Positions 16,918-56,889 of a stretch of 64,000 nucleotides of DNA are shown here, in pieces. Every line of letters begins with the position of its first letter. Within the stretch, counting starts at the first letter, position 1. Both the position numbers and the translations under genes were made by a program. Location: positions 245,389 to 309,388 of the forward strand of contig CAZIEY010000001.1 of the NCBI GenBank assembly GCA_964538855.1. Reading direction: 5' to 3'. This DNA comes from an uncultured Candidatus Saccharibacteria bacterium. Its GTDB lineage: Bacteria; Patescibacteriota; Minisyncoccia; Phycocordibacterales; JAACPR01. A model generated the notes under the pieces. The model saw only the letters and a list, made by a program, of their open reading frames with translations. It had not been told where the DNA came from and ran no database searches.

Positions 16918-16985
16918 GATTAGAAAAATATAGCAGGAAACGAACTTTTATTCAACTCCTTAATCTCTCTGTGTCTCTGAAATTT

Positions 16986-17123
16986 TACATGACTTACATA
17001 TGATTTTTAAGTGGGCTTTCGGAGGACGTTCGGTTTCTCCCAAGTAACGTCCGAGAACGAGCTGAGTTTTTCCGATAGGAAAAACTACAGCGTACCAATC
17101 AAAAATCATATGTAAGTCATGTA
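16986..17123. repeat. Inverted-repeat-bounded element: 23-bp perfect IR, or a 21-bp terminal inverted repeat CATGACTTACATATGATTTTT flanked by TA on both sides (MITE-like).
   Basis: Left arm 16986-17008 equals the reverse complement of right arm 17101-17123 exactly. The 92-nt interior has internal hairpins. It sits in the promoter/5' region of the 17147 gene. Confidence 0.5.
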
Positions 17124-17146
17124 GAATTTCTGATATACTCTATTTC

Positions 17147-20773: not shown

Positions 20774-20879
20774 GTTTCATGAATAACATATCCGGTATGA
20801 AGAAGTGATAAATAAACAATGTAGAAATAATGAATTTTACAGACTAATAATCCACAGTGAATTGTTATTCATGAAACAA
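20773..20879. promoter_or_regulatory. 16-bp perfect inverted repeat TGTTTCATGAATAACA / TGTTATTCATGAAACA spanning the yraN start codon and its 5' region
   Basis: Arms at 20773-20788 and 20864-20879. The proximal arm abuts the yraN AUG. Confidence 0.4.
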
Positions 20880-21070
20880 GTTATGTAGTTTCACGTGAAA
20901 CATAGGTCTTTTATCCACTCAAAGACAGATTTGACAAAAGGTCAAATATATCCTTACTTTACAACATATTTTAACGTTTTGCCTACTTGTAAAAGACTAA
21001 AAGATGATGTCTTTTATACACATGTCCCCAGTCTTATCCACAGTTTTGGGGATACGGTCTTATAGACTCT

Positions 21071-22804: not shown

Positions 22805-22973
22805 GGGGTTTTTGGGTATAAAAAAACTACATAGAAATTTCCTGAAAAAAGCTGGCCAGTATACGGCTGCGCATCGTGATACGTTTAGTATTCGGATGCA
22901 AAGTGGGTTTTGGGGATGTATTTTATTTATTGTTGTAGCCAAACAAGTGGGATTGTTTTGACTCGCCGTGGCA

Positions 22974-23026
22974 AGTAGAGGAATTTGATCGCTTCTGATA
23001 AACAGAAGTAAGCAAATTCCTCTACT
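22974..23026. other. Stable extended stem-loop in a 500-bp intergenic region
   Basis: 13-bp stem GTAGAGGAATTTG/CAAATTCCTCTAC encloses a second 6-bp hairpin CTTCTG...CAGAAG. No T-run follows. Confidence 0.35.
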
Positions 23027-23246
23027 CGACAAGACTGTGCCGTACCCGCCACACTACGTGAAATTTATATATAGTTTTTTATTCTACTGTCTGGCGATAG
23101 CACCGCATAAAGTTTTGAGCCACAAGGGGCGAACCGCGCGCATGCCAGATTATTTTAATGAACAGAAATGAACTAACCTGAAGATAGTATACGTCCTATA
23201 AAGGACATATGTAAAGGACATGGATGTGGATAACTGAATGTCCTTA

Positions 23247-23300
23247 ATAAAAACTCTTAATTTTAAAGTCCTCGGGTCGCATCACGCACGTTCTATTTAA
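23247..23300. repeat. Truncated copy of the palindromic intergenic repeat family (left arm plus core)
   Basis: AATAAAAACTCTTAATTTTAAAGTCCTCGGGTCGCATCACGCACGTTC matches the arm and core of the copies at 44863 and 52981. Confidence 0.5.
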
Positions 23301-33779: not shown

Positions 33780-33821
33780 AATCCATACAATTATATCACA
33801 GTCGTCTGATATAATAACCAC

Positions 33822-34712
33822 ATGCAAACACCGGGGACAAGAGTTATCTATTTTTCAATTTTTGCAGCGATTGTGGTTACGGGAATCATCTCATATTCAA
33901 CATATCAAGAAAAAAAGCCAGTGAGAATCGCAGCGCAAGAAACTGAAAAAAATCTCGCCATCGTGGTCGATAACCAATATAAAAATACCGATTCAGATGC
34001 AGATGGTCTATTCGACTGGGAAGAAACTCTCTGGCGCACCGACCCAGAGAACGCAGACACAGATAAAGATGGGACCAAAGACGGTCAGGAAGTTGCCCTT
34101 AGTCGTGACCCAAACAAAGCTGGACCACAAGATGATTGGGCGCCGAACAACTACCTCGAGCAATATGTTGCAACTACAAAAATCGATCCGAATTCCTTGA
34201 CAAGTCGCATCGCCCAGAATCTATTGATCGCAGTAGGACAAAGTGATAGCCCAGATATTGCCACTACACTACTTGCGCAAATTCAGGCAGAAATAAAAAC
34301 TACCCAAATCTTTAAGAAAGAGAATCTAATTACTTTTGACGATATGAATAAAGAAAAAGTGCAGGAATACGCAAACGCATTTATCGAAATATACCAAAAA
34401 GAGACTCGTGCGGCAGAACTTATTCCAGAAAATAATCAAAAAGCCTATGCGGATGTGTACAAAAAGATGGCACTATCACTATCGACTATTCCAGTCCCAA
34501 ATTCACTTGCTGGAGTACACACCAATTACATCAACAACTTGAATAACATGAGTATTTTCACCACGATCATCATCCAGGCAGAAAACGACCCGATCAAAAT
34601 GGTAGCGGTTATTCCAGAATTCAACAAAATGCTCGGTGAACAAATTACTTTGTTGGAACAAATAAAAACTTACATGCAAAGTAATGCTATAATTTTCACT
34701 ATCGATGCGTAA
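33822..34712 (+). CDS. Membrane-anchored hypothetical protein with Asp-rich DxDxDG-like motifs
   Basis: N-terminal TM, then DSDADGLFDWEE...DTDKDGTKDGQE (Ca-binding-like). Confidence 0.45.
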   Translation: MQTPGTRVIYFSIFAAIVVTGIISYSTYQEKKPVRIAAQETEKNLAIVVDNQYKNTDSDADGLFDWEETLWRTDPENADTDKDGTKDGQEVALSRDPNKAGPQDDWAPNNYLEQYVATTKIDPNSLTSRIAQNLLIAVGQSDSPDIATTLLAQIQAEIKTTQIFKKENLITFDDMNKEKVQEYANAFIEIYQKETRAAELIPENNQKAYADVYKKMALSLSTIPVPNSLAGVHTNYINNLNNMSIFTTIIIQAENDPIKMVAVIPEFNKMLGEQITLLEQIKTYMQSNAIIFTIDA

Positions 34713-35823
34713 TACCAGCAAACCAATCAGCAACAAATTAAAGACAACCTTCAATTTCCTATTGATTGGAATTTTATTGTTCGGTCAATTTGGTGTTGTG
34801 TTTGCACAAAACACTCCGACACCCGATCTTCCTGAAAGTGAAGAGAACTGGCAAAATATCAATGAAAACCAGGAGTTTCGAGATTTAGAAGAAGCTCACA
34901 ACCAATACGACGACCAATTCAACGACGAAACCGGAAAAAAGATCTATCCGGAACAACAAAAGAAACCGGATGCCCCAGTCGCTACCGCAGCTAGCGCAGG
35001 AAAATGTGTCTTGGCACAACTTGCGGCCAACCTAGCAAAAAAGGGTTTCGCTGTGTTCGCAAAAAAAGTATCTGCAACACTGGTCAATGCAACAATGGTT
35101 CCGGTATATATTCCAGGTCTGGAAAACAAAGAAGTTGGAACACTTGGTGGACTTGGACCAAGCGAAGACGGTATTGGATATTGTATTGCAAACAGCATTA
35201 TCCAATATATTTCTGATTCGACGATTGATTGGATTAATAGTGGATTTGAAGGAAATCCTGTGTTCGTCGATGATCCAACACGAATTTTCAAGGATTTAAG
35301 AGACGACACAATCAACACATTTCTCAGTGAATTCGGGGAGGGAATTCTCTGTGAGGATTTTAGTATGAGAGTCAAATTAGCCCTTGTGACAAAAGAACGA
35401 CCAAAAAAGAATTTCAAATGTACTTATGAGATGGTAGATGCCAATATACGAAACATGAAAGAGAACGGGGTTTTCACCTTCGAAGGTTGGGATGAAATCA
35501 CACAAAATCCGCAAAATAATCAAATTGGAGCATTCCTGTCGCTCGATTCAGAGCTATTAAAACTTAAGGCGACGCGAGAAGGTAATTTAAACCAAGAATT
35601 GACCTGGGGTAGCGGATATTTACCATGGAAGGATAAGGATAATAAAAACAGAACAGTTACCCCGGGAAAGGTCGTCCAATCATCTATTGAAAAAAACCTC
35701 CAATTGAAATCAGACCGATTAGTATTAGCAGATGAATTTGATGAGGTTATTGACGCCCTTGCAGATCAACTCATGAGACAGGCAATTATTGGAATTCTCG
35801 GTCAAGAGGAACCACCAAATTAA
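34705..35823 (+). CDS. Secreted hypothetical protein
   Basis: N-terminal TM/signal (FNFLLIGILLFGQFGVVFAQ). No known domain. Confidence 0.45.
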   Translation: MRNTSKPISNKLKTTFNFLLIGILLFGQFGVVFAQNTPTPDLPESEENWQNINENQEFRDLEEAHNQYDDQFNDETGKKIYPEQQKKPDAPVATAASAGKCVLAQLAANLAKKGFAVFAKKVSATLVNATMVPVYIPGLENKEVGTLGGLGPSEDGIGYCIANSIIQYISDSTIDWINSGFEGNPVFVDDPTRIFKDLRDDTINTFLSEFGEGILCEDFSMRVKLALVTKERPKKNFKCTYEMVDANIRNMKENGVFTFEGWDEITQNPQNNQIGAFLSLDSELLKLKATREGNLNQELTWGSGYLPWKDKDNKNRTVTPGKVVQSSIEKNLQLKSDRLVLADEFDEVIDALADQLMRQAIIGILGQEEPPN

Positions 35824-35877
35824 TCTGTATAACTTTTAGTTTGACACATTATTTTTCTGTTATAATTTTCAATAAAG

Positions 35878-38265
35878 ATGTTACATGGGATTTATAAAAA
35901 AATAGGCCTGTTTTTTATACTATTAGTTATAATGGTCGTACCCACCGTGTCGTTACATGCGACGAGCTTATCGACAATGGTAAAAGATCGCGCGTTCGAG
36001 GATAATAGCAACAACGCTCGCGCAAGATATTTAAACGAATATAAAAAAGAATACTCTGATTTGGTTGACAAAATCGCTGGCTCCCAAACTTCAAATCAGG
36101 AAGATTTGCAAAGAAAAGCCAAACTTGAATATCTATTACCAAAAGCAATGAGTTCTAGTGAGTGGGCTAGTTTTTCTCACGCAAACATACACCCAAATAA
36201 AATAAGCAATGTGTCATTTGGGTCTTTATACAATGGCAATACAGATGGTGTCCAAGCAACTGATATATATACAAGAAAAGAAGGAACGGATGACGTTTAC
36301 ACGAGTAATAATCCGAAATTCAAGGACGTCGAATTTACATTGTCACTGAAAAGTGATGGTACATACCAAGTTAAGCGCGCCTACAATCCTGTAACGAAAC
36401 AGGATTTCAGTGTTACAACTGAGGCACAATTACAAGCACTTAAAAAGGCAGCGGAGGCAGACGATGTCGAGATTGTTTGTTATACCGGAGTCAGCACAAT
36501 ACTTAGTACAATTAACCCCCTCTGTTGGATAGCGAAATTTTCTTACTACATCATATTCACTATTAGCTCATGGTTTTTGAGTATATCTGGCCAATTGTTC
36601 AATTTTGTTGTCGTGCAAACTGTTGTTGAGATGAAGGAACTCATCCAAGACAATATCGTCAACCAAGGATGGATCTTATTCAGAGATATTATAAATATTC
36701 TATTCATATTCGTACTTATATATGCAGCGATAAGCACCATTCTAAAGGGAACAAGTGACACAGGAAAAACCATCGTAACAGTTATCGTGGTTGCTGTTTT
36801 AATTAACTTTAGTCTATTTTTTACAAAAGTGATTGTTGATATTTCAAACACACTTGCAGTTAGTTTCTATAATTCCATTACAACGATGCCCCTAAAAGAT
36901 GCAAAGGGTAAGCCTGTTACCATAAACAGCAGTGCTCAATTCGGGATTGCCGAGGTGTTCTTAACTCAAACAAATATGACGACTATTGTCGGCACCAACC
37001 CAGAAAATATTAAGTGGGGTGTTGCGTCATTAACTTATCTCGGAATCATCAAACAGACCCTCATTGCCTCTGTATTTATCGTCATACTGGGAGTAGTTCT
37101 TTTGCTGATGTCATTGATGCTAGTCACCCGATTCCTGATCCTGATATTTGTGATGATCACATCTTCGCTGGCATTTGGATCCTACATACTACCCAAACTC
37201 CAAAGTCAAGTTGCCGACAAATGGTGGCCAGCTCTCATTGGACAAGCGTTCTTTGTACCGGTATTTTTCTTGATGTTATACATTACACTCAAATTTTCCC
37301 AAACACTTCCATTCGACAAAGGTACCGGTTGGGCAAATATGGCACATATTGTACCAGGACAAATAGTCACTTATATTATGATTGTTGGAATGCTTATTCT
37401 ATCAATGAAAGTTGCAAAGAGTATGGCTGACGAAGCGGGCGCGGCGTCCGGAAAAATTACTGGGATGTTGGGCGGGGCAGCACTCAGCGTCACAGGATTT
37501 GCTGCGCGTCACTCAATTGGAATTGCTGCTCGAGAGATAGCAAACAGCAAGCTCCTTTCTGGTAGCGGTCTAACCGCAAGAACTTTGCGTGCTGGATTTG
37601 GCCGTATAGGAGAAAGCAGCTTCGATGCCAGACATTCTGATACATTCAGTCATATAAATGATGCTGTTGGCGGAACCGACTTTGGCAAGGGTCGCGGAGA
37701 AGGTGGTTATGACAAGTTTGCCGACAAGCGAGAGAAGTACCACAAAGAAAAATATGCTGAGGAAGAAAAGGCATATAAAGAAGAGGGCAAATTCACTGAC
37801 GATGAGCAGGACGCTGTTACTGCTGGTCTACAATTTGAGAAAGAAAATAAGTCTGCTATGGAGGTGAAGAAATTGGTTGACGCTAGGGATAAACTCGCTG
37901 CTCGACAGGCTGCTGCGGCTACCCAGCTTGAAAAAGATGCGATCCAAAAACACATCGATAACGTTAATAATGAAATCAACAAAAAAGATATCACGGAAGC
38001 TGACGCAAAAGCAATATACGATAACGCAGATAACAAGAAGATTCTTGACGCCAAGAAAAAAGCAGAAGCTGCCGCAAAAGAAAGGCAAACGAAATTCCTC
38101 GAATCTCGTCAAAAGACTCGATGGGGAATCCGCAGTGGAGATGGTGCTAAATTTGCTCGCGAGCAACTTGCTAAAAACGCCAAGGAGAAAACTGACACCG
38201 ACAGACTTCTTGAGGGTTTGAAAGCATCAGCCAATAGTGGTGGAGGAGGTGGAGGTAAACCATAA
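35878..38265 (+). CDS. Large polytopic membrane protein, putative VirB6/TrbL-like type IV secretion channel component, with a Lys/Glu-rich coiled-coil C-terminus
   Basis: 795 aa with a signal/TM, 6 or more central TM helices and a charged tail. Sits two genes upstream of the PrgI-like and VirB4 genes. Confidence 0.45.
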   Translation: MLHGIYKKIGLFFILLVIMVVPTVSLHATSLSTMVKDRAFEDNSNNARARYLNEYKKEYSDLVDKIAGSQTSNQEDLQRKAKLEYLLPKAMSSSEWASFSHANIHPNKISNVSFGSLYNGNTDGVQATDIYTRKEGTDDVYTSNNPKFKDVEFTLSLKSDGTYQVKRAYNPVTKQDFSVTTEAQLQALKKAAEADDVEIVCYTGVSTILSTINPLCWIAKFSYYIIFTISSWFLSISGQLFNFVVVQTVVEMKELIQDNIVNQGWILFRDIINILFIFVLIYAAISTILKGTSDTGKTIVTVIVVAVLINFSLFFTKVIVDISNTLAVSFYNSITTMPLKDAKGKPVTINSSAQFGIAEVFLTQTNMTTIVGTNPENIKWGVASLTYLGIIKQTLIASVFIVILGVVLLLMSLMLVTRFLILIFVMITSSLAFGSYILPKLQSQVADKWWPALIGQAFFVPVFFLMLYITLKFSQTLPFDKGTGWANMAHIVPGQIVTYIMIVGMLILSMKVAKSMADEAGAASGKITGMLGGAALSVTGFAARHSIGIAAREIANSKLLSGSGLTARTLRAGFGRIGESSFDARHSDTFSHINDAVGGTDFGKGRGEGGYDKFADKREKYHKEKYAEEEKAYKEEGKFTDDEQDAVTAGLQFEKENKSAMEVKKLVDARDKLAARQAAAATQLEKDAIQKHIDNVNNEINKKDITEADAKAIYDNADNKKILDAKKKAEAAAKERQTKFLESRQKTRWGIRSGDGAKFAREQLAKNAKEKTDTDRLLEGLKASANSGGGGGGKP

Positions 38266-38272
38266 AATAATC

Positions 38273-38857
38273 ATGCCCAAAACAGAAAACAATAAAATTA
38301 TCGAGGATCGTTTCGCAGAATTACCTCAAGTTATCCAGAAGATAATCACTGATTCTGGTTGGCAATTCAAAATTCGTGACTTAGTCAAAAAATTTAACAT
38401 TCGTGTGGATCAGGGTGGGGCGATAGAGAACGAGATACTGCTCGTAATGTTAGATTTCGAGAACCCAGAAAATTTCGTCCAAAATATCATGAACGGAGCG
38501 CAGTTGGACCAAAAAACCGCAGAATCTCTCGCAACGGAAGTTGGTTTGTTAATCTTTGATCCAATTCGTGAGGCTCTAATTGCAGAAACGAATTCTGAAA
38601 AAAACGCGCTGAGCGGCGGGTCAAGTGGTTCGGTAGTTCAACCTCTCGAATCTCGCGAAGACCTCCTCAAACAAATCGAGGATCCGACTGAAATTCCCGA
38701 TATCAAACCGAGTACAATGAAAGCGAATGCGTCAGTTGCAGCGACACCGACAGTTTCCGCATCAATCAACGTCGCCACCGCACCAGTCACATCAATACCA
38801 GAAACACCTCGTCCAACCGCGCCAAAAATAGACCCATATCGAGAACCGATTGAATAA
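38273..38857 (+). CDS. Hypothetical protein with a Pro/Thr/Ala-rich C-terminus
   Basis: ORF within the T4SS-like block. Start uncertain (38237 or 38273). Confidence 0.4.
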   Translation: MPKTENNKIIEDRFAELPQVIQKIITDSGWQFKIRDLVKKFNIRVDQGGAIENEILLVMLDFENPENFVQNIMNGAQLDQKTAESLATEVGLLIFDPIREALIAETNSEKNALSGGSSGSVVQPLESREDLLKQIEDPTEIPDIKPSTMKANASVAATPTVSASINVATAPVTSIPETPRPTAPKIDPYREPIE

Positions 38858-38897
38858 TTCGAGCGCAGAGTCGCAGAACTAAGGTACAATTAGACTA

Positions 38898-39347
38898 ATG
38901 AAATACCAAGTCCCACAATTCATCGAGGTCGAGGACAAGATTTTTGGTCCACTCACACTCAAACAGTTTCTCTACGTCGCCGGTGGGGCAGCGATTGGTT
39001 TTATTATTTGGTCGGCAGTTCCAGTAAAATTTATTGCAATAGTAGCCGCGCTACCAGTTGTAATCTTTTTTCTCGCCATGGCATTCTATCGCGTAAATGA
39101 ACGACCTTTCGTAACACTCGTAGAAAGTTCGATCAGATATTTTTTTGGGACTAAACTATACATTTGGCATAAAATCGAAAGGAAGCCTGTGCAGACACAA
39201 AACACTTCTACACCCACAGCAGCGAACAATCTTGATGTACTTATCCCAAAACTTTCCGATAGCAAACTGAAAGAATTAACCTGGAGTCTCGACATTAATG
39301 AAAAACTTGGTAATTCCGGAACCACGAGTGAAAAATTTAAGGTATAA
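38898..39347 (+). CDS. PrgI-family (VirB3-like) small membrane protein
   Basis: N-terminus MKYQVPQFIEVEDKIFGPLTLKQFLYVAGG plus two TM helices matches the PrgI-family pattern. Lies immediately upstream of VirB4. Confidence 0.55.
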   Translation: MKYQVPQFIEVEDKIFGPLTLKQFLYVAGGAAIGFIIWSAVPVKFIAIVAALPVVIFFLAMAFYRVNERPFVTLVESSIRYFFGTKLYIWHKIERKPVQTQNTSTPTAANNLDVLIPKLSDSKLKELTWSLDINEKLGNSGTTSEKFKV

Positions 39348-39365
39348 TGTTTTTGTACCTTTTAT

Positions 39366-40001
39366 ATGGCAACATCTAGCAAACCAACCCAGGAATTCGT
39401 GCCCATCCAAGAAGTTCGTGATGGTATCATCGTCATGCGCGACGGATCGATGCGCGTGATTTTGCTTGCTTCGTCAGTGAATTTCGCCCTCAAATCAGAA
39501 GACGAGCAGGCTGCGATTACATTTCAATTCCAAAACTTCTTGAACTCACTAGATTTTAGTATGCAAATTTTCTTGCAGTCACGCCGGCTCGACATTCGAC
39601 CGTACCTCGCACTTCTCGCTGACAGACAAAAGCAACAAATCAACGACTTAATGCGTATCCAGATTCGCGAATACTCTAATTTCATCAAGAGTTTCACTGA
39701 AAATGTAGAAATCATGACAAAAAACTTCTTCATAGTAGTGCCATATGTACCACTTCGTCTCGATTTCACAAAAAGCGCGGGGTCATTTGGAAAACCAAAA
39801 AAGGATTCGGGGCAAGAAAAAAGTGAGAACTTTGAAGAGGCGCGAATACAGCTCGATCAGCGCATTTCAATCGTCTCAGGCGGACTCTCACGTTGTGGTA
39901 TTCGAACCGTCGTCCTGGGAACAGAAGAAGTGGTCGAAGTCTTCTACAAATTGTTCAACCCGGGTGACATGGACAAGCCGATTTCACTAACACAAAAATA
40001 A
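39366..40001 (+). CDS. VirB4/CagE/TrbE N-terminal domain protein (separate ORF)
   Basis: EFVPIQEVRDGIIVMRDGSMRVILLASSVNFALKSEDEQ resembles the N-terminus of Gram-positive VirB4 (PrgJ/TrsE-type). Stop TAA sits 1 nt before the next ATG, in a different frame. Confidence 0.45.
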   Translation: MATSSKPTQEFVPIQEVRDGIIVMRDGSMRVILLASSVNFALKSEDEQAAITFQFQNFLNSLDFSMQIFLQSRRLDIRPYLALLADRQKQQINDLMRIQIREYSNFIKSFTENVEIMTKNFFIVVPYVPLRLDFTKSAGSFGKPKKDSGQEKSENFEEARIQLDQRISIVSGGLSRCGIRTVVLGTEEVVEVFYKLFNPGDMDKPISLTQK

Positions 40002-40002
40002 T

Positions 40003-41901
40003 ATGGGAATATTCGATTTTCTAAAAAAGAAGGAAGTAGCAACAAAAGGACCAGACATCACCTCGTTTTTGCCACAGCAAATTTATGAGGCAGGTGTCTT
40101 GGAATTACGCGACATTATCGCACCATCTGCTTTGAAAATTACCCCAAAAACACTCAACCTCGGCGAAAAGGTGGTGCGTAGCTTCTTTGTAATTTCATAT
40201 CCGCGCTTCTTGTCAGACAGCTGGTTTGCACCGATTATCAACATGGACAAAGTTTTTGATGTCTCGATTTTCGTCCATCCGATTGAAACTTCAAAAATTC
40301 TAAAGCAATTTCAAAAAAAGGTGGCCGAAGTTCAAAGCCAAATTAACATGCGTGCAGAAAAAGGTCTTGTGCGCGATCCGCAATTAGACACTGCATACCA
40401 AGACCTCGAATCATTGCGAGACAATTTGCAACAAGCACAAGAACGCATTTTTGATGTCGGACTCTACATTACAATTTACGCCGATAACGAAGAAGAATTA
40501 GACAAGGTCGAGTCGGAATTCAAATCAATCCTAGAATCCAAGTTGGTTTACATGAAACCGGCTCTTTTCCAACAAGAAGAAGCTTTCAAAACGGTCATGC
40601 CTCTTTCAACAGACCTTCTCAATATCCATTCCAAGCTTAACTCTGGACCTCTTTCAAGTATTTTTCCATTCATTTCTTTTGAATTAACCAGTGATCGGGG
40701 AATTTTGTACGGAATCAATCGCCACAATTCAGGGCTCGTCTTGTTCGACCGATTCTCACTCGAAAACTACAACTCAGTGACATTTGCAAAAGCTGGTTCC
40801 GGAAAATCGTACGCGACCAAATTGGAAATTTTGCGTTCACTCATGTTTGGTACCGAAGTAATCGTGCTCGACCCAGAACGAGAATATGAATTTCTTGCCG
40901 AAGCAACCGGCGGGCGATATTTCAACGTATCTCTTTCATCAGAACATCATATCAATCCGTTCGACTTGCCGCGCGCAACAGGGGACGAGGAACCTGCGAA
41001 TATTTTGCGCTCTAACATTGTAAACCTCGTCGGGCTTTTCCGTCTCATGTTCGGAGGGCTTTCACCAGAAGAAGATGCGATTATCGACCGAGCAATCAGC
41101 GAAACATACGCCCTCAAAGACATTACACCTGATTCTGATTTCTCAGATATCGAACCACCGCTCTTGTCAGACTTCGAATTAGTTTTGGCTGGTATGGAAG
41201 GTGCAGAAAGTCTCGTCCAAAAATTGAGCAAATACACGAAAGGAACTTGGTCTGGCTTTATCAATAAACCAACAAACGTTGACCTCACCAAACATTTCAC
41301 TGTATTTTCATTGCGCGATATGGAAGACGAATTAAAGCCAATCGCAATGTATTTGATCACGCACTACATTTGGATCGAAGTTCGCCGTGAATTAAAAAAA
41401 CGCCTCCTCGTGATCGACGAGGCATGGTGGATGATGAAATCAGAAGACACCGCCTCTTTCCTATACGGACTCGCAAAACGAGGTCGAAAATACTATCTTG
41501 GACTTTCAACAATCACACAAGACGTTGAAGACTTTATGAGCTCACCATATGGAGTGCCGATTATTACAAACTCATCAATTCAATTTTTGATGAAGCAATC
41601 TCCATCTTCAATCGACGTAGTCCAGCGCACCTTTAACCTGACTGACGAAGAAAAATTCCTTTTACTTGAATCAAACGTAGGGGAGGGTATTTTCTTCGCT
41701 GGCATGAAACACGTTGCCATGAAGGTAATCGCCTCATACACCGAAGATCAAATTATCACGTCCGATCCGTCTCAAGTTTTGTCAATTCGTCGTGCAAAAG
41801 AAGAATTCAAAAATGCCCAAGCAACTGGCAGTGAGGGTCAGGACTTCAACCGTTCAAGCATCAGCAAGGTACGCGAAAACCTCCAAATCAACAAGGCTTA
41901 G
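40003..41901 (+). CDS. VirB4-like type IV secretion ATPase (ATPase domain)
   Basis: Walker A FAKAGSGKSYATK, Walker B LLVIDEAWWMM and the CagE/TrbE/VirB4 C-terminal architecture. Confidence 0.8.
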   Translation: MGIFDFLKKKEVATKGPDITSFLPQQIYEAGVLELRDIIAPSALKITPKTLNLGEKVVRSFFVISYPRFLSDSWFAPIINMDKVFDVSIFVHPIETSKILKQFQKKVAEVQSQINMRAEKGLVRDPQLDTAYQDLESLRDNLQQAQERIFDVGLYITIYADNEEELDKVESEFKSILESKLVYMKPALFQQEEAFKTVMPLSTDLLNIHSKLNSGPLSSIFPFISFELTSDRGILYGINRHNSGLVLFDRFSLENYNSVTFAKAGSGKSYATKLEILRSLMFGTEVIVLDPEREYEFLAEATGGRYFNVSLSSEHHINPFDLPRATGDEEPANILRSNIVNLVGLFRLMFGGLSPEEDAIIDRAISETYALKDITPDSDFSDIEPPLLSDFELVLAGMEGAESLVQKLSKYTKGTWSGFINKPTNVDLTKHFTVFSLRDMEDELKPIAMYLITHYIWIEVRRELKKRLLVIDEAWWMMKSEDTASFLYGLAKRGRKYYLGLSTITQDVEDFMSSPYGVPIITNSSIQFLMKQSPSSIDVVQRTFNLTDEEKFLLLESNVGEGIFFAGMKHVAMKVIASYTEDQIITSDPSQVLSIRRAKEEFKNAQATGSEGQDFNRSSISKVRENLQINKA

Positions 41902-41945
41902 GAAAGCCGGCTTTTCTCGCGAATTTTTGTAGTATAATTTGAGTA

Positions 41946-43022
41946 ATGAAAAAGTCTTTCTATGTAATGCTCGCATTGGCAATAGGGATACCGTTTTTTT
42001 CTTTTGCTCAAATTGCGGAAACTGATATATCCGCAGAAATTCAGGCCTTATTAGACACCTCAGTAGTAGATACATATTCTGGACTACCCGAGGGAGTGAG
42101 TGAGCAACTTTCTCTCGATATCACTCCGACAAATCCTCGACCTTTTGGCGATGTTACTTTGAGAATTACAAGCAACGCCACTGATTTAAACAAAGCAAAC
42201 ATTACTTGGCGGGTTAACAGTGCAGTTTCTCTCAAACAAATCGGTGCAACAACATTTACTTTTACTATGGGGAGGTTGGGGGAAAGTAAGGCAGTAAACG
42301 TTTCGATAGAAAAATACGGGGGAGGGGTTCTCGAAAAGACATACTTCTTTATTCCGACAGAAGTAGATTTGATTTACTCTGCGGACACATACACACCACC
42401 TTTTTACAAAGGGAAATCATGGCCAACACACCAATCAACCATCCGAGTCCTTGCTCTGCCTCGCATTTTGGATGATTATGACAGATTAATTTCCCCTGAC
42501 TCATACGTATACACATGGCGACGCGACGGCCGTGTAGTACAAGACCAATCTGGTTACGGAAAAAATGTCTTTACCTATACCAACGGCTTACTTGATGCAG
42601 ATGTAAAAATTAGTGTCGAAGCTTCTCCGCGCGAATACAACACTGTCGCATCAGCAAGTGTCATCATAGATCCGGTCGAACCCGAAATCGTTGTTTACGA
42701 AAAAAATCCAATCTATGGAACAATTTTTGAACAAGCAGTCACTGGAACTTACTACCTCACCAGAAATGAGATTACTTTTGAGGCCATTCCTTATTTCTTC
42801 AACAAAAACACCTTGGACCTTTCCTGGGTGATGAATGGGCAGCAGATAACCAACCTCTCAAATCCGCGTGAAGTCACCTTCCGTATCGAGGAGGATGAGG
42901 CTGGTAGGTCTGACATTGGCATTCAAGTGACAAATAGTGATAAAATATTGCAGTCAGCAAGCAATGGATTCACCCTGCTTTTTGAAAAGATTGCAGACGC
43001 AACGACTCCAAATAACTTTTAA
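41946..43022 (+). CDS. Secreted hypothetical protein
   Basis: Signal peptide MKKSFYVMLALAIGIPFFSFAQ. Likely beta-rich. Confidence 0.5.
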   Translation: MKKSFYVMLALAIGIPFFSFAQIAETDISAEIQALLDTSVVDTYSGLPEGVSEQLSLDITPTNPRPFGDVTLRITSNATDLNKANITWRVNSAVSLKQIGATTFTFTMGRLGESKAVNVSIEKYGGGVLEKTYFFIPTEVDLIYSADTYTPPFYKGKSWPTHQSTIRVLALPRILDDYDRLISPDSYVYTWRRDGRVVQDQSGYGKNVFTYTNGLLDADVKISVEASPREYNTVASASVIIDPVEPEIVVYEKNPIYGTIFEQAVTGTYYLTRNEITFEAIPYFFNKNTLDLSWVMNGQQITNLSNPREVTFRIEEDEAGRSDIGIQVTNSDKILQSASNGFTLLFEKIADATTPNNF

Positions 43023-43025
43023 CAT

Positions 43026-43544
43026 ATGCGCACATTGAAACTATCGCAAAAAAAAATATTAGTAGGTTCTTTAATATTTACTCTGCTTACCCCTTTTGCT
43101 CTATCTGCCCAAATTTTTAACAGCTCAAATTCTACCTTGCCGCAAGCTCAACAGGGCGCATCAAATCCTGCTGCGACGCAAAATACTACTGCCCCAAAAC
43201 CTGACACAACACAAAAAACCACAGCACCTTCCTCAAAGAAAAGCTACACATCACTCACTGATATTCCAGGACTAACTCAGAACGGCACCAATTCCAATAT
43301 GTTAGCGACTCTCCAATTCATATTCAAGTGGGGAATTGCGGTTGCTGTGTTGCTTGCAATCCTAATGACAATTATAGGCGGAGTACAATATATGACCACC
43401 GATGCGATGTTTGCCAAAGAAGAGGGTAAGCACAAAATTCAATCAGCAATAATGGGGCTTCTCCTCGCTCTTTCGGCTTGGATTATTCTCTACACCATTA
43501 ACCCGCGCATTCTCGAAAAACCAGATTCTGAATTGTTAAGATAA
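43026..43544 (+). CDS. Pilin-like (VirB2/TrbC-like) membrane protein with a Thr/Gln/Pro-rich N-terminal extension
   Basis: Signal peptide, low-complexity region, then two hydrophobic helices (WGIAVAVLLAILMTIIGG..., AIMGLLLALSAWIILYTI) typical of T4SS pilins. Confidence 0.45.
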   Translation: MRTLKLSQKKILVGSLIFTLLTPFALSAQIFNSSNSTLPQAQQGASNPAATQNTTAPKPDTTQKTTAPSSKKSYTSLTDIPGLTQNGTNSNMLATLQFIFKWGIAVAVLLAILMTIIGGVQYMTTDAMFAKEEGKHKIQSAIMGLLLALSAWIILYTINPRILEKPDSELLR

Positions 43545-43581
43545 ACCGCAAAAATACTTTACCACCTGCTATAATAAACGC

Positions 43582-44859
43582 ATGTCTCGTAAAACTCTCT
43601 TAATTATCATTGTACTATTCTTTTGTATCGGAGTCGGATTTTTGGGATATTATTTTTTAAAGCCTACAGCAGTAATTGAAACACCACTCAACAATACTGG
43701 AGTCCAAAACCCGTTTGGTAATTTCTTTCCAGCAGAAAATGTACCAGCAGCTCCGAACGTTACAACACCAGAAAAAGAAACTTCAACTATACAATATAGC
43801 GAACCCATCAGAAACCTGAGAAAAATCGCTGACGTACCGATCGCAGGTGGAATAGTTTTTGATAAAACTGCAACAAGCACCGCGGGCACCGTCTCAAACA
43901 CGATATTCCGATACGTCGAGAGGGCAACAGGTCATGTGTATGAAACAACCGCAACAAGCACCGCTAACGTGCGCATCTCAAACACAACTATTCCAAAAAT
44001 CTATGAGGCATTTTTCTTGGAGGATAAAAACCAAATTGCATTCCGATACTTAGGAAATGATGAAAAAATAGAAACATACGTGGCAACCATTCGCGCAACC
44101 ACCACAGTAGAAGGGGAAGTAAAGACCAACCTCGAGGGTATTTTCATGCAAAAAGACATCTCGGACTTTTCGACTTCTCCAAACGGAAAGAATATCTTCG
44201 CACTATCCCCAAACGCAAACTCTGCGAGTACGGCGCAATTGCTTGGACAAAGTGCCCTGGCTTCTAATCCAAACAAGCAATCAACCCTCTTCAGTTCTCC
44301 AATTCCGGTTTGGTCAGCAGAGTGGTTTGGAGGGGAACAGATTGCAGTCACTTCGAAACCAAGTTACAACGCGCAAGGAATTTTATATTTCATTAATTCC
44401 AGAACTGGATTTCAGGAAAAGATTCTTGGTCCAATCACCGGACTCGTTACAAAACCAAGCCCCGACGGTAAAAAGGTTGTATATTCAAAAAATGACGGTA
44501 GTGGAGTTACAACAAATTTCCTAACTGTTTCAACGAATATTATTAAGAGTTTACCTATCAAAACAATCGCGGATAAATGTGTGTGGAGTCGAAATAACAA
44601 AGATGTGTTCTGTGCGGTGCCGAATTCAAATCTTACCGGAGAATACCCAGACTTATGGTACATGGGACTTACTTCATTCAACGACTCACTCATAAAAATT
44701 GATACGGAACAAGAAACCGTGCGCACAATAATGTCGGTTGGGGCAGAAACAACAGAATCTCTTGATATGATTAACTTGCAACTTTCTCCAAAGGAAGATT
44801 ATTTAGTGTTTACTAACAAACGCGACCTCAGTTTCTGGAGTCTCGATATTAAAGAGTAG
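43582..44859 (+). CDS. Membrane-anchored hypothetical protein with a large extracytoplasmic domain
   Basis: N-terminal TM (LLIIIVLFFCIGVGFLGYYF). Last gene of the T4SS-like block. Confidence 0.45.
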   Translation: MSRKTLLIIIVLFFCIGVGFLGYYFLKPTAVIETPLNNTGVQNPFGNFFPAENVPAAPNVTTPEKETSTIQYSEPIRNLRKIADVPIAGGIVFDKTATSTAGTVSNTIFRYVERATGHVYETTATSTANVRISNTTIPKIYEAFFLEDKNQIAFRYLGNDEKIETYVATIRATTTVEGEVKTNLEGIFMQKDISDFSTSPNGKNIFALSPNANSASTAQLLGQSALASNPNKQSTLFSSPIPVWSAEWFGGEQIAVTSKPSYNAQGILYFINSRTGFQEKILGPITGLVTKPSPDGKKVVYSKNDGSGVTTNFLTVSTNIIKSLPIKTIADKCVWSRNNKDVFCAVPNSNLTGEYPDLWYMGLTSFNDSLIKIDTEQETVRTIMSVGAETTESLDMINLQLSPKEDYLVFTNKRDLSFWSLDIKE

Positions 44860-44862
44860 GGG

Positions 44863-44983
44863 TAAATAAAAATAACTTTAAATTTTAAAAGTCTGGTTGA
44901 GCATCAAAACAAAACACACATTCATTTCTGAACGTGCGTGATGAGACCCGAGGACTTTAAAATTTAAAGTTATTTTTATTTAC
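44863..44983. repeat. Palindromic intergenic repeat, full copy: about 28-bp perfect inverted arms around a 65-nt core
   Basis: Arms GTAAATAAAAATAACTTTAAATTTTAAA / TTTAAAATTTAAAGTTATTTTTATTTAC. Core shared (reverse complement) with the copies at 52981 and 23247. The yidC stop codon lies inside the right arm. Confidence 0.6.
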
Positions 44984-52980: not shown

Positions 52981-53069
52981 ATAAATAAAACAAAAACTCT
53001 TAATTTTAAAGTCCTCGGGTCGCTTTCGCTCAACCAGACTTTTAAAATTAAGAGTTTTTGTTTTATTTA
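52981..53069. repeat. Palindromic intergenic repeat, internally deleted copy: about 30-bp arms around a 29-nt core
   Basis: Arms ATAAATAAAACAAAAACTCTTAATTTTAAA / TTTAAAATTAAGAGTTTTTGTTTTATTTAG. Core GTCCTCGGGTCGCTTTCGCTCAACCAGAC equals the ends of the 44863 core (reverse complement) with the middle deleted. Confidence 0.6.
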
Positions 53070-53910: not shown

Positions 53911-53916
53911 TTATTC

Positions 53917-54198
53917 ATGAATAACACGGTACTTAGAAAAGAAAAAGTCCCAGAATTTGTTGGGGTAAAGGAATTTCGGAATAATATTTCGAATTATATT
54001 GCCAAGGCTCAAAAATCTGGCAAAAAAATTATTCTTACAGTCAATAACATTCCTACATTTGAAATGCGTCCAATCAAAAAAGAGCAAGTGTATTCAAAGC
54101 AATTTATTGCGGACATATTAGAGGCAGAGGAAGACGTTAAACACGGTCGTGTATATTCACACGAATATGTTTTAAAAAAGTTTGGCTTCAAAAAATGA
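53917..54198 (+). CDS. Phd/YefM-family antitoxin
   Basis: VGVKEFRNNISNYIAKAQKSGKKIILTVNNIPTFEMRPI matches the Phd/YefM fold. The ATGA overlaps the downstream toxin gene. Confidence 0.65.
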   Translation: MNNTVLRKEKVPEFVGVKEFRNNISNYIAKAQKSGKKIILTVNNIPTFEMRPIKKEQVYSKQFIADILEAEEDVKHGRVYSHEYVLKKFGFKK

Positions 54199-54461
54199 TT
54201 TATTTTTCTCACACATCGAAAGCGATACAAGATTTAGAACAAATAGATAGTTATAATGCGAAAAGGATTACTCTCAAAATTGGCCAGTATGAAAATGACC
54301 CTCATCCTCTCACGCGAGCAAAACCTCTCTCTGGAAATTGGCACAACAGGTTTCGGTATCGAATAGGGGATTACAGAGCAATATTCAAATATGAACAAAA
54401 TGGTAACGATTATCTCGTTACCATTTTGCGTATTAAACACAGAAAAGATGTGTATGAATAA
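54195..54461 (+). CDS. RelE/ParE-family toxin
   Basis: 88 aa with YRIGDYRAIFKYEQNGNDYLVTILRIKHRKDVY, the RelE/ParE signature. Confidence 0.7.
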   Translation: MIYFSHTSKAIQDLEQIDSYNAKRITLKIGQYENDPHPLTRAKPLSGNWHNRFRYRIGDYRAIFKYEQNGNDYLVTILRIKHRKDVYE

Positions 54462-56475: not shown

Positions 56476-56571
56476 ATTTTTTATATATGCTATTATATCA
56501 CCTGAAGACGAAATTTGCTCTCCACAAGACTTGCCCGCGCGACTTATTCATAGCCGCGCCTTTATCCAAGT

Positions 56572-56724
56572 CATAAATCTCTAAACAACGTGGTTCACGC
56601 CTAACAAGGTATTGCTTCGAGGACGTTCCTGGTTTCAAAACTTCGGTTTTGTTGCTGTGACTATCCTCAGAACCTTACCTGCCTTCAAACAAACGAGTTT
56701 GATTGATTTGTTTAGAGATTTATG
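56572..56724. other. 17-bp perfect inverted repeat (CATAAATCTCTAAACAA / TTGTTTAGAGATTTATG) enclosing a 119-nt relatively GC-rich segment. Candidate structured RNA or MITE-like element.
   Basis: Arms at 56572-56588 and 56708-56724. The interior shares GAGGACGTTC..GGTTTC with the interior of the 16986 element. Confidence 0.35.
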
Positions 56725-56889
56725 TTTTGGATCTCTGTGGTGTGCTTCGTAAAAAAGAACTTCTTGTAACTAATATTACAGAAGTTCTTTTTTATTACAA
56801 CTGGTCAGTGGGGAGTTTTTGTTTTATAAGTTTCCAAGCATCAGATTTTACGATCATCTGGCAAAAAGAGGGTAGAGTTTTGTGGGTTT

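What the first reader, a model, noticed from the sequence alone, without database searches (positions are those of the whole stretch)
44863..44983. Three-copy long-palindrome intergenic repeat family located at gene 3' ends
A perfect inverted repeat of about 28 bp (GTAAATAAAAATAACTTTAAATTTTAAA) flanks a 65-nt core at 44863-44983.

A second copy at 52981-53069 has about 80%-similar arms of around 30 bp. Its core equals the two ends of the first core in reverse complement (GTCCTCGGGTC...GCTCAACCAGAC), with the middle roughly 40 nt deleted.

A third, truncated copy (arm plus core start, ...GTCCTCGGGTCGCATCACGCACGTTC) sits at 23247-23300.

All three lie immediately downstream of genes. Two sit between convergent gene pairs, with the stop codons of yidC and of the acidic ORF embedded in an arm. 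Candidate roles are a bidirectional terminator cassette, a REP/MITE-like mobile repeat, or a small structured RNA. Three copies in 64 kb suggests a genome-wide family.
Basis: seen in the sequence. Interest (0 to 1): 0.7.

Follow-up and report, generated by a model that had tools for sequence, protein, structure and literature searches.

The report
Mobile hairpin repeat at gene ends
A small repeated DNA element that folds into a long hairpin with a strictly conserved tip has been inserted at the ends of genes in an uncultivated, ultra-small (Paceibacteria/CPR) bacterium and a few relatives; it is a new family of a broadly familiar type of selfish or co-opted repeat, and probably acts as a two-way transcription stop signal.

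Summary
The window holds two complete copies and one half copy of one repeat family. The defining part is not the long AT-rich arms. It is the tip: GTCCTCGGGTC, then a variable hairpin of 7-43 nt, then CTCAACCAGAC, closed by AAAGTC/GAC-N-TTT. Seven further copies turned up in related Paceibacteria loci and metagenome contigs. Their arms differ in sequence but stay almost perfectly Watson-Crick complementary.

Syntenic relatives have empty sites: an ordinary bidirectional terminator, abutting stop codons, or a 26-nt palindrome. So the element is an insertion. At one locus an identical 29-nt core sits in the opposite orientation in a relative. Other copies are decayed or cut at the apex.

A second, unrelated core (window 16971-17138) has the same architecture, and in one relative it occupies the yidC site.

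There is no Rfam family, no phage or plasmid match, no target-site duplication, no conserved terminal repeat, and no transposase in the window.

Best reading: a non-autonomous stem-loop repeat recognised as a folded single strand. It often lands in palindromes at gene ends and probably serves as a terminator. How it moves is unknown.

The parts
44862..44983 (-). Family-1 copy 1, long form. In the orientation called A here (GTCCTCGGGTC first) it lies on the minus strand. It fills the gap between the stop of the 425-aa ORF (44859) and yidC.
   Evidence: covariance-model score 121.6 bits
44862..44889 (.). Copy 1, left arm (28 nt, perfect complement of 44956-44983)
   Evidence: (I7)
44956..44983 (.). 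Copy 1, right arm. It contains the yidC stop codon (44976-44978) and the last Lys codon.
44891..44955 (-). Copy 1 core: GTCCTCGGGTC, a 43-nt insert, then CTCAACCAGAC
44914..44939 (-). Hairpin inside the long core (11 pairs, GAAA loop) followed by UUUGUUUUGA. It resembles an intrinsic terminator and points in the direction of yidC transcription.
   Evidence: (-15.3 kcal/mol, z -3.6); compensatory changes in L040 and L043
52982..53069 (+). Family-1 copy 2, short form, orientation A on the plus strand. It lies between tyrS (ends 52936) and the acidic 69-aa ORF, whose stop (53067-53069) is in the right arm.
   Evidence: 76.3 bits
53011..53039 (+). Copy 2 core: GTCCTCGGGTC-GCTTTCG-CTCAACCAGAC
   Evidence: Identical but inverted in L030.
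23245..23293 (+). Family-1 copy 3, a half element: left arm plus the long core up to the apex of the inner hairpin. It lies 12 nt before the xth stop codon.
   Evidence: The site is empty in L043, which has a 26-nt perfect palindrome there.
16971..17138 (.). Sister family ('family 2'): 44-nt arms (86% complementary) around an unrelated 80-nt core. The architecture is the same. It lies between tRNA-Gly(tcc) and a trypsin-like protease gene.
   Evidence: The same core lies at the yidC junction of L041. It is absent at this site in L043 and L044.

Best explanation
This is a family of small, non-autonomous interspersed stem-loop repeats (MITE/ERIC/REPIN-like in lifestyle) in a Paceibacteria (CPR) lineage.

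The unit is a hairpin. The tip is fixed in sequence: two 11-nt motifs face each other across an internal loop, closed by AAAGUC/GAC-N-UUU. The central hairpin between the motifs, and the 26-40-nt AT-rich stem below them, are free to vary as long as they pair.

Shown:
- The element is an insertion that is present or absent at syntenic sites.
- It occurs in both orientations.
- It occurs in long and short forms.
- Copies decay and get truncated.
- A second, unrelated core has the same architecture.

Inferred:
- Only the folded shape brings the two conserved motifs together, whatever the insert length. So whatever spreads or uses the element probably recognises a folded single strand (ssDNA or RNA), not a duplex terminal repeat.
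- It tends to land in or next to existing palindromes at gene ends: a resident terminator, abutting stop codons, a 26-nt palindrome.
- When transcribed from either side it forms a long hairpin flanked by A and U tracts, so it can replace a bidirectional terminator. The long form adds a one-way terminator hairpin.
- The perfect arms, their outward growth into coding sequence, and the flipped core come from replication template switching between the arms.

The enzyme or process that copies the element to new loci is unknown.
For: Family membership:
- 3 copies in the window.
- 7 more copies in L004, L013, L014, L029, L030 (two), L040 and L043.
- All were recovered by a covariance model at 60-128 bits.

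Invariant columns are confined to the tip, while arms differ between copies.

Arm pairing:
- 29 stem pairs, 16 with changes on both sides.
- 97% of cells paired, and only 2 G-U cells.
- 0 of 500 shuffles reach the observed values.

Insertion status at each site:
- yidC/ORF junction: filled in the window, L030 and L040; holds the family-2 core in L041; empty in L042, L032 and L036.
- tyrS site: relatives carry TAACAAAAAAAACCGCG-AGAC-CGCGGTTTTTTTTGTTA instead.
- CCA-xth site: empty in L043 and L044.
- tRNA-Gly(gcc) site: filled only in L043.

Conservation of the tip:
- The tyrS-site core is 29/29 identical between the window and L030 but inverted. Neighbouring spacer is 71% identical and coding DNA 76-80%.
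- The yidC-site core is 92% identical between the window and L040, against 82% for yidC coding DNA.

Decay:
- L030 has a 19-nt arm deletion plus core mutations.
- Copy 3 is cut at the apex.

Palindromes at empty sites are stronger than in shuffles at 3 of 4 family-1 sites.

The arms reach into the last yidC codons in L040, giving a 36-41-nt palindrome.

The terminator-like inner hairpin is kept through compensatory changes.

Template switching is reported to homogenise inverted-repeat arms, invert spacers and expand repeats (PMC8604942, PMC8794818, PMC13100816).

A short-read contig of the source sample ends inside copies 1 and 2.
Against: - No transposase, HUH or RAYT gene was found in the 64-kb window. 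The only recombinase is a syntenic Xer-like integrase.
- No target-site duplication or shared flanking motif was found (inspection of flanks).
- No larger autonomous element was found with the same ends.
- Only about 10 copies are known. The exact 17-mer is nearly absent from 596 Gb of reference genomes (1 true hit) and rare in metagenomes (4 true hits). High copy number is therefore unproven.
- The relatives compared are different species (76-86% nucleotide identity). 'Inversion in place' cannot be separated from independent insertion in the opposite orientation.
- Perfect conservation of the tip at an orthologous site could mean a host function rather than mobility.
- The terminator role is untested, and it fits poorly with the copy between rplD and rplW.
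- The tRNA-Gly(gcc) site and the family-2 site show no palindrome in their empty state.
Confidence: 0.72

Rival explanations
1. A host-selected structured RNA element. It would be a cis-acting 3'-UTR or intercistronic motif whose conserved internal loop binds a protein or directs RNase processing and stabilisation. Under this reading, spread is incidental and persistence is due to function.
For: - Two strictly invariant 11-nt motifs are held together by covarying helices of variable length.
- The core is 29/29 identical across species whose neutral DNA is about 71% identical.
- The inner hairpin has GNRA-type loops and G-U pairs that work only on strand A.
- In the three co-directional contexts (L014, L004, L043) strand A is the transcribed sense.
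Against: - The stem shows almost no G-U pairs (2 cells), which is unlike one-strand RNA selection.
- The element is absent from syntenic sites in relatives that keep the same genes.
- Some copies decay or are halved with no visible consequence.
- It does not accompany any particular gene class.
- No Rfam family matches, ribozymes included.
- 3 of 3 for orientation is not significant.
Confidence: 0.25
2. A classical MITE. This would be a deletion derivative of an insertion sequence, moved by a DDE transposase that binds its terminal inverted repeats and makes a target-site duplication.
For: - Palindromic architecture, small size, intergenic location, both orientations, and internal-deletion variants.
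- About 20 nt of arm (AAAAACTCTTAATTTTAAA) is shared by several copies at different loci.
Against: - Conservation runs the wrong way. The outer ends of the arms are the least conserved part, and the L043, L004 and L014 arms differ beyond about 10 nt while the cores match.
- No target-site duplication is seen at any filled/empty pair.
- No transposase lies in the window, and no longer element shares these ends in any scan.
Confidence: 0.12
3. Ordinary bidirectional terminators that only look like a family. Under this reading, ectopic gene conversion or template switching between similar A-tract/T-tract hairpins copies one terminator's loop into others, and no mobile element is involved.
For: - The outer arms at the tyrS site resemble the A and T tracts of the ancestral terminator.
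- Other terminators in the window have the same AAACAAAAAC...GTTTTTGTTT frame (I6 and I12).
- Two different cores occupy similar outer arms at the yidC site (L040 and L041).
Against: - Copies occur where the empty site has no terminator: abutting stop codons, directly after a tRNA, between rplD and rplW, and in a 5' leader.
- The L043 arms are unrelated to any sequence at the empty site.
- The same core occurs in contigs from several different samples whose arms are unrelated beyond the innermost ~10 nt (L004, L014); how closely those organisms are related to the window's was not established.
Confidence: 0.12
4. Chance similarity or an assembly artefact.
For: None beyond the low-complexity AT-rich arms.
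Against: - Motif counts far exceed shuffles.
- The same sequences occur in independent assemblies and samples (L001, L015, L045, L046).
- Covariance-model E-values are 1e-11 to 1e-28.
Confidence: 0.01

Closest known systems
ERIC/IRU and YPAL elements of enterobacteria and Yersinia (from my own knowledge)
   Same: Imperfect palindromes of about 70-130 nt in transcribed intergenic regions. They occur in both orientations, with long and short forms differing by internal deletion or insertion. No transposase is encoded. They are thought to act on mRNA ends and stability.
   Different: ERIC copies are similar along their whole length. Here only the tip is conserved and the stem varies freely. ERIC insertions duplicate TA, and no duplication is seen here. 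The phylum is also different (CPR).
Correia elements (CREE) of Neisseria (from my own knowledge)
   Same: Small palindromic repeats between genes, with full-length and internally deleted forms. They are reported to act as terminators or RNase III substrates.
   Different: Correia elements are defined by conserved 26-bp terminal inverted repeats and a TA duplication. Both features were tested here and not met.
REP / REPIN repeats mobilised by RAYT (HUH Y1) transposases; REPs as IS targets (PMC1525189)
   Same: Hairpin-forming extragenic repeats between convergent genes. Structure is kept by compensatory change. Recognition as a folded single strand is the proposed mode.
   Different: In REPINs the arms (the REP sequences) are conserved and the loop is variable, which is the reverse of this family. 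No RAYT gene was seen in the window. The arms here are AT-rich rather than GC-rich.
Stem-loop sequence (SLS) repeat families found by systematic genome scans (PMC2267715)
   Same: The same general category: repeated intergenic sequences that share a predicted hairpin.
   Different: Those families come from 40 cultivated bacterial genomes. None is from CPR, and none was matched here by sequence.
Integron attC sites (from my own knowledge)
   Same: Recognised by shape rather than sequence. They have a variable-length middle, extrahelical bases, and a location at gene 3' ends.
   Different: attC conserves the base of the hairpin (R''/R' boxes) and varies the tip. attC sites occur in co-oriented arrays next to an integron integrase. 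None of this is seen here.
Rho-independent bidirectional terminators
   Same: An A tract, a hairpin, then a T tract, between convergent genes. The element occupies the exact place of such a terminator at the tyrS site.
   Different: Terminators at different loci are not homologous to one another and have short GC-rich stems. Here the stem is 26-40 bp and AT-rich, and it carries a conserved internal loop.

Membership tests
MITE (transposase-dependent miniature inverted-repeat element) | Terminal inverted repeats conserved among copies, especially at the outer ends | tested here: not met
   The outer arm positions are the most variable. L043, L004 and L014 arms differ from the others beyond about 10 nt.
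MITE (transposase-dependent miniature inverted-repeat element) | Target-site duplication of fixed length flanking each copy | tested here: not met
   No direct repeat is seen at any filled/empty comparison.
MITE (transposase-dependent miniature inverted-repeat element) | A cognate full-length IS with the same ends in the genome | tested here: inconclusive
   None was found in the 64-kb window or among the pattern hits. The rest of the genome was not available.
REP/REPIN | Conserved REP arms (often a GTAG 5' motif) with a variable loop | tested here: not met
   The pattern is reversed: conserved tip, variable arms.
REP/REPIN | RAYT (Y1 HUH) gene in the genome | tested here: inconclusive
   None was found in the window. 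The whole genome was not searched.
Intrinsic (Rho-independent) terminator | A stable hairpin immediately followed by a U-rich tract on the transcribed strand | tested here: met
   The long-form inner hairpin plus UUUGUUUUGA was flagged by the consensus scan and is stable. For whole elements, the 3' arm ends in GUUUUUGUUUUAUUUA or similar on both strands. Termination itself was not tested.
Intrinsic (Rho-independent) terminator | Location only where transcription should end | tested here: not met
   The L014 copy lies between rplD and rplW. The L004 copy lies just upstream of a start codon.
Any Rfam RNA family, self-cleaving ribozymes included | Score at or above the family's gathering threshold | tested here: not met
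   Only generic long-hairpin (miRNA precursor) models match, at 20-40 bits against thresholds of 50-250.
Integron attC | Inverse-core RYYYAAC and core GTTRRRY at the two ends, and an array next to intI | tested here: not met
   GCTCAAC occurs once, in the tip, with no inverted partner (sequence inspection). There is no array, and no integron integrase context.
Interspersed stem-loop (SLS) repeat, broad sense | Multiple dispersed copies that share sequence and a common predicted hairpin, in intergenic DNA | tested here: met

The most novel reading that the evidence does not exclude
The element, together with the unrelated 'family 2' core of identical architecture, may represent a class of mobile DNA not yet described. 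In this class the conserved hairpin tip would be recognised as a folded single strand, and the arms would be supplied or perfected locally by template switching. It would home to hairpin-prone spots such as terminators and abutting stop codons in ultra-small CPR genomes that otherwise carry almost no transposable elements. Movement might need no dedicated transposase, or might use an unrecognised one.
Probability: 0.15. Interest if true: 0.75.

Novelty: new variant of a known kind. Interest (0 to 1): 0.45.

Why it matters
CPR/Patescibacteria genomes are tiny and usually described as poor in repeats and mobile DNA. I found no paper describing such elements in them.

A hairpin repeat that replaces native terminators, extends into stop codons and flips its core shows that even these streamlined genomes are remodelled at gene ends.

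The reversed conservation pattern (fixed tip, free stem) gives a concrete handle for finding whatever protein or process recognises the element.

Practically, the repeat breaks short-read assemblies of these organisms. It can also be mistaken for a small-RNA gene.

Tried and rejected
- Rfam at gathering thresholds on the whole window, and at permissive E-values on copy 1, copy 2, the L014 copy, family 2 and two conserved non-coding regions. Only generic hairpin models matched.
- Phage and plasmid collections: no match.
- Viral contigs: the two 17-mer hits are chance matches (no palindrome or second motif around them), and the two-part core pattern gave none.
- Genome and metagenome 17-mer scans: most hits were chance single matches in unrelated phyla and were discarded after inspecting their flanks.
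- Fuzzy motif search and covariance-model search of about 196-360 kb of related loci: no further diverged copies.
- Search for a target-site duplication or common flanking tetranucleotide: none found.
- Promoter reading (TTGAGC-N19-TAAAAT in the short form): rejected, because the spacing is not conserved among copies and the scan lists nothing there.
- Hammerhead, twister and other ribozyme motifs looked for by eye: not present.
- Relatedness of the family 1 and family 2 cores: the alignment score is below the shuffle median.
- 'Arms are inverted copies of the target flank': tested at the family-2 site and the L043 tRNA site. It was inconclusive at the first (weak similarity) and not supported at the second.
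- Relatedness of the L004, L013, L014 and L029 genomes to the window: no shared genes, so it could not be measured.
- Two look-ups meant to extend the window by 10 kb at each edge failed because the ORF starts were not on record.
- The public record name of the 388-kb source contig was not returned.

Full report
**Observation**

The three sites are as described.

- Copy 1 (44862-44983) has perfect 28-nt arms around a 66-nt centre.
- Copy 2 (52982-53069) has perfect 29-nt arms around a 30-nt centre.
- Copy 3 (23245-23293) is one arm plus the first half of the long centre, 90% identical to copy 1 on the opposite strand.
- The shared motifs are far above chance: 3 matches against 0.18 expected, and 2 exact matches against 0.00 expected.
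- Both complete copies fold with z-scores of -8 to -9.5 on either strand.
- The yidC stop codon and the stop codon of the acidic 69-aa ORF lie inside arms. All three copies sit between convergent genes.

**Host**

YidC homologues and synteny (rpmH-rnpA-yidC / dnaA-dnaN, tyrS, ruvABC, type IV-like secretion genes) place the window in Paceibacteria/Parcubacteria, part of the CPR. GC content is 42%. Cumulative GC skew reaches its minimum near dnaA.

**What is conserved**

Pattern scans of reference genomes and metagenomes returned mostly chance hits, plus true relatives: L004, L013, L014, L015 (identical to copy 2) and L029. Syntenic loci added two copies in L030, one in L040 and one in L043.

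Aligning them shows that the invariant columns are confined to the tip. The tip reads AAAGTC-CTCGGGTC-[variable hairpin of 7, 13, 15 or 43 nt]-CTCAACCA-GAC-N-TTT. One base is always bulged next to GAC.

The arms differ between copies. In L043, L004 and L014 they are unrelated beyond about 10 nt. Within each copy they pair almost perfectly:

- 16 of 29 stem pairs carry changes on both sides.
- 97% of cells pair.
- Only two G-U cells are seen.
- No shuffle or slid control comes close.

The two motifs are brought face to face only by folding, whatever the length of the middle hairpin. I therefore infer that the relevant form is a folded single strand. This is inference, not a result.

The long form's middle is itself a stable hairpin (-15 to -20 kcal/mol, z about -3.3). 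It has GAAA, GCAA or GUAA loops and G-U pairs that work only on strand A, and it is followed by UUUUGUUUUG. It looks like a one-way intrinsic terminator and is kept through compensatory changes.

**It is an insertion**

Four sites could be compared with relatives.

- **yidC / 425-aa-ORF junction.** The series by YidC identity is as follows:
  - Window: long form.
  - L030 (96%): long form with a 19-nt arm deletion and a mutated tip.
  - L040 (92%): long form with a perfect 36-41-nt palindrome that reaches into the last yidC codons and is mirrored on the far side.
  - L041 (86%): perfect 24-nt arms around a different core.
  - L042 (82%), L032 (68%) and L036 (66%): empty, with the two stop codons 0-9 nt apart.
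- **tyrS site.** L032 and L036 carry an ordinary bidirectional terminator, TAACAAAAAAAACCGCG-AGAC-CGCGGTTTTTTTTGTTA. The window and L030 carry the element between similar A and T tracts.
- **CCA-xth site.** L043 has a perfect 26-nt palindrome, AAAATGTCCTTTATAAAGGACATTTT. The window's half element starts within 2 nt of its centre.
- **After tRNA-Gly(gcc).** L043 has a long-form copy. The window and L044 do not. The window also lacks about 15 nt of flank that the other two share, so a deletion in the window is likely.

Palindromes at the empty sites are stronger than in shuffles at three of four family-1 sites. None is seen at the tRNA site or at the family-2 site. Palindrome targeting is therefore a tendency, not a rule.

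**Orientation and selection**

The 29-nt core at the tyrS site is identical in the window and in L030 but inverted. The adjoining spacer is 71% identical and the flanking genes 76-80%. Two readings fit:

- The core is constrained and was flipped in place.
- Fresh copies entered the same hot spot independently.

I cannot separate these.

At the yidC site the core is 92% identical between the window and L040, against 82% for yidC coding DNA. In L030 it has decayed to 80%.

In the three co-directional contexts, strand A is the transcribed sense. These are rplD-rplW in L014, the 5' leader in L004, and the site after the tRNA in L043. This is only a hint.

**Arms**

Three features need explaining: perfect Watson-Crick arms that differ between orthologous copies, growth of the palindrome into coding sequence, and a flipped spacer. 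These are the reported signatures of replication template switching between inverted repeats, namely arm homogenisation, spacer inversion and repeat expansion (PMC8604942, PMC8794818, PMC13100816).

Selection for a hairpin on both transcripts, as a bidirectional terminator would need, would give the same picture. Copy 3 is cut at the apex of the structure. That is where long palindromes are expected to break (from my own knowledge).

**A second family**

Window 16971-17138 has 44-nt arms (86% complementary) around an 80-nt core. That core is 86% identical to the core found at the yidC junction of L041, inside completely different arms. It is unrelated to the family-1 core. It is absent at the same site in L043 and L044. 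The architecture of a fixed tip with free arms is therefore not peculiar to one sequence.

**What it is not**

- No Rfam family reaches threshold on any copy, ribozymes included.
- Nothing similar exists in the phage, plasmid or viral collections.
- There is no target-site duplication.
- There are no conserved termini.
- No transposase lies in the window. Its only recombinase is a Xer-like integrase that is syntenic in relatives lacking the element.

It therefore fails the defining tests for a classical MITE, a REP/REPIN and an attC site. It meets only the broad definition of an interspersed stem-loop repeat (PMC2267715).

**Function**

The tyrS site argues that the element can stand in for a bidirectional terminator. 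The long form carries an extra one-way terminator pointing away from yidC, rplT or the tRNA. The copies inside the S10 operon and in a 5' leader argue that termination cannot be strong or universal. I rate the terminator role at about 0.45 and the mobile-repeat identity at about 0.8.

**Verdict**

This is a genuine, lineage-restricted family of hairpin repeats. It behaves like the known small palindromic repeats of cultivated bacteria, but its conservation pattern is reversed and its mode of spread is unknown. It is of moderate interest. It would rank higher if a census and gene co-occurrence analysis showed a new recognition or mobility mechanism.

Noticed in passing
window 16971-17138: A second palindromic element ('family 2'): 44-nt arms around an 80-nt core with two hairpins. 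The same core sits at the yidC junction of relative L041, inside unrelated perfect arms. It is absent at this site in L043 and L044. No Rfam match.
   Followed up: partly
window 56564-56732 (also L032 131-296, L036 565-731): A 169-nt element closed by a 25-bp stem, upstream of ruvB. It is conserved in relatives with only 66-68% YidC identity, with arm differences that keep pairing. It looks like an unannotated structured RNA. No Rfam match at E<=1.
   Followed up: partly
window 22830-23245: A non-coding region of about 420 nt between the CCA-adding-enzyme gene and xth, conserved down to a relative whose protease is 54% identical (L044). It contains a 29-nt-arm hairpin (22969-23031), three AAAGGACAT repeats and a perfect DnaA box (23225-23233). 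No Rfam match at E<=0.1.
   Followed up: partly
window 20780-21070: A conserved non-coding stretch with a near-consensus parS (AGTTTCACGTGAAACA, 20887-20902) and four DnaA-box-like 9-mers within 200 nt (20848-21042). It lies 25 kb from dnaA, where the GC-skew minimum falls. It may be an origin-proximal partition or DnaA-binding cluster.
   Followed up: no
window 53914-54461: A Phd/YefM-like antitoxin (weak, below the Pfam cut-off) and a ParE-family toxin sit between yebC and ruvC. In L030, L032 and L036 those two genes abut, so this is a lineage-specific toxin-antitoxin insertion.
   Followed up: partly
L001 (Logan SRR13208889 contig, 8141 nt): A short-read contig of the source sample starts inside copy 2 and ends inside copy 1, so the repeat breaks de Bruijn assemblies of this organism.
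   Followed up: yes
window 33800-44860 (and L032, L036): A conserved cluster of type IV secretion-like genes (PrgI, TraC-like, TraG P-loop ATPase and pilin-like proteins) lies directly beside yidC and the replication-origin genes in all relatives examined.
   Followed up: no
L010 1050-2290: A chance-hit metagenome contig (unrelated organism) carries its own repeat family, built around ATAGTCCTCGGGTT-like motifs next to AT-rich palindromes.
   Followed up: no
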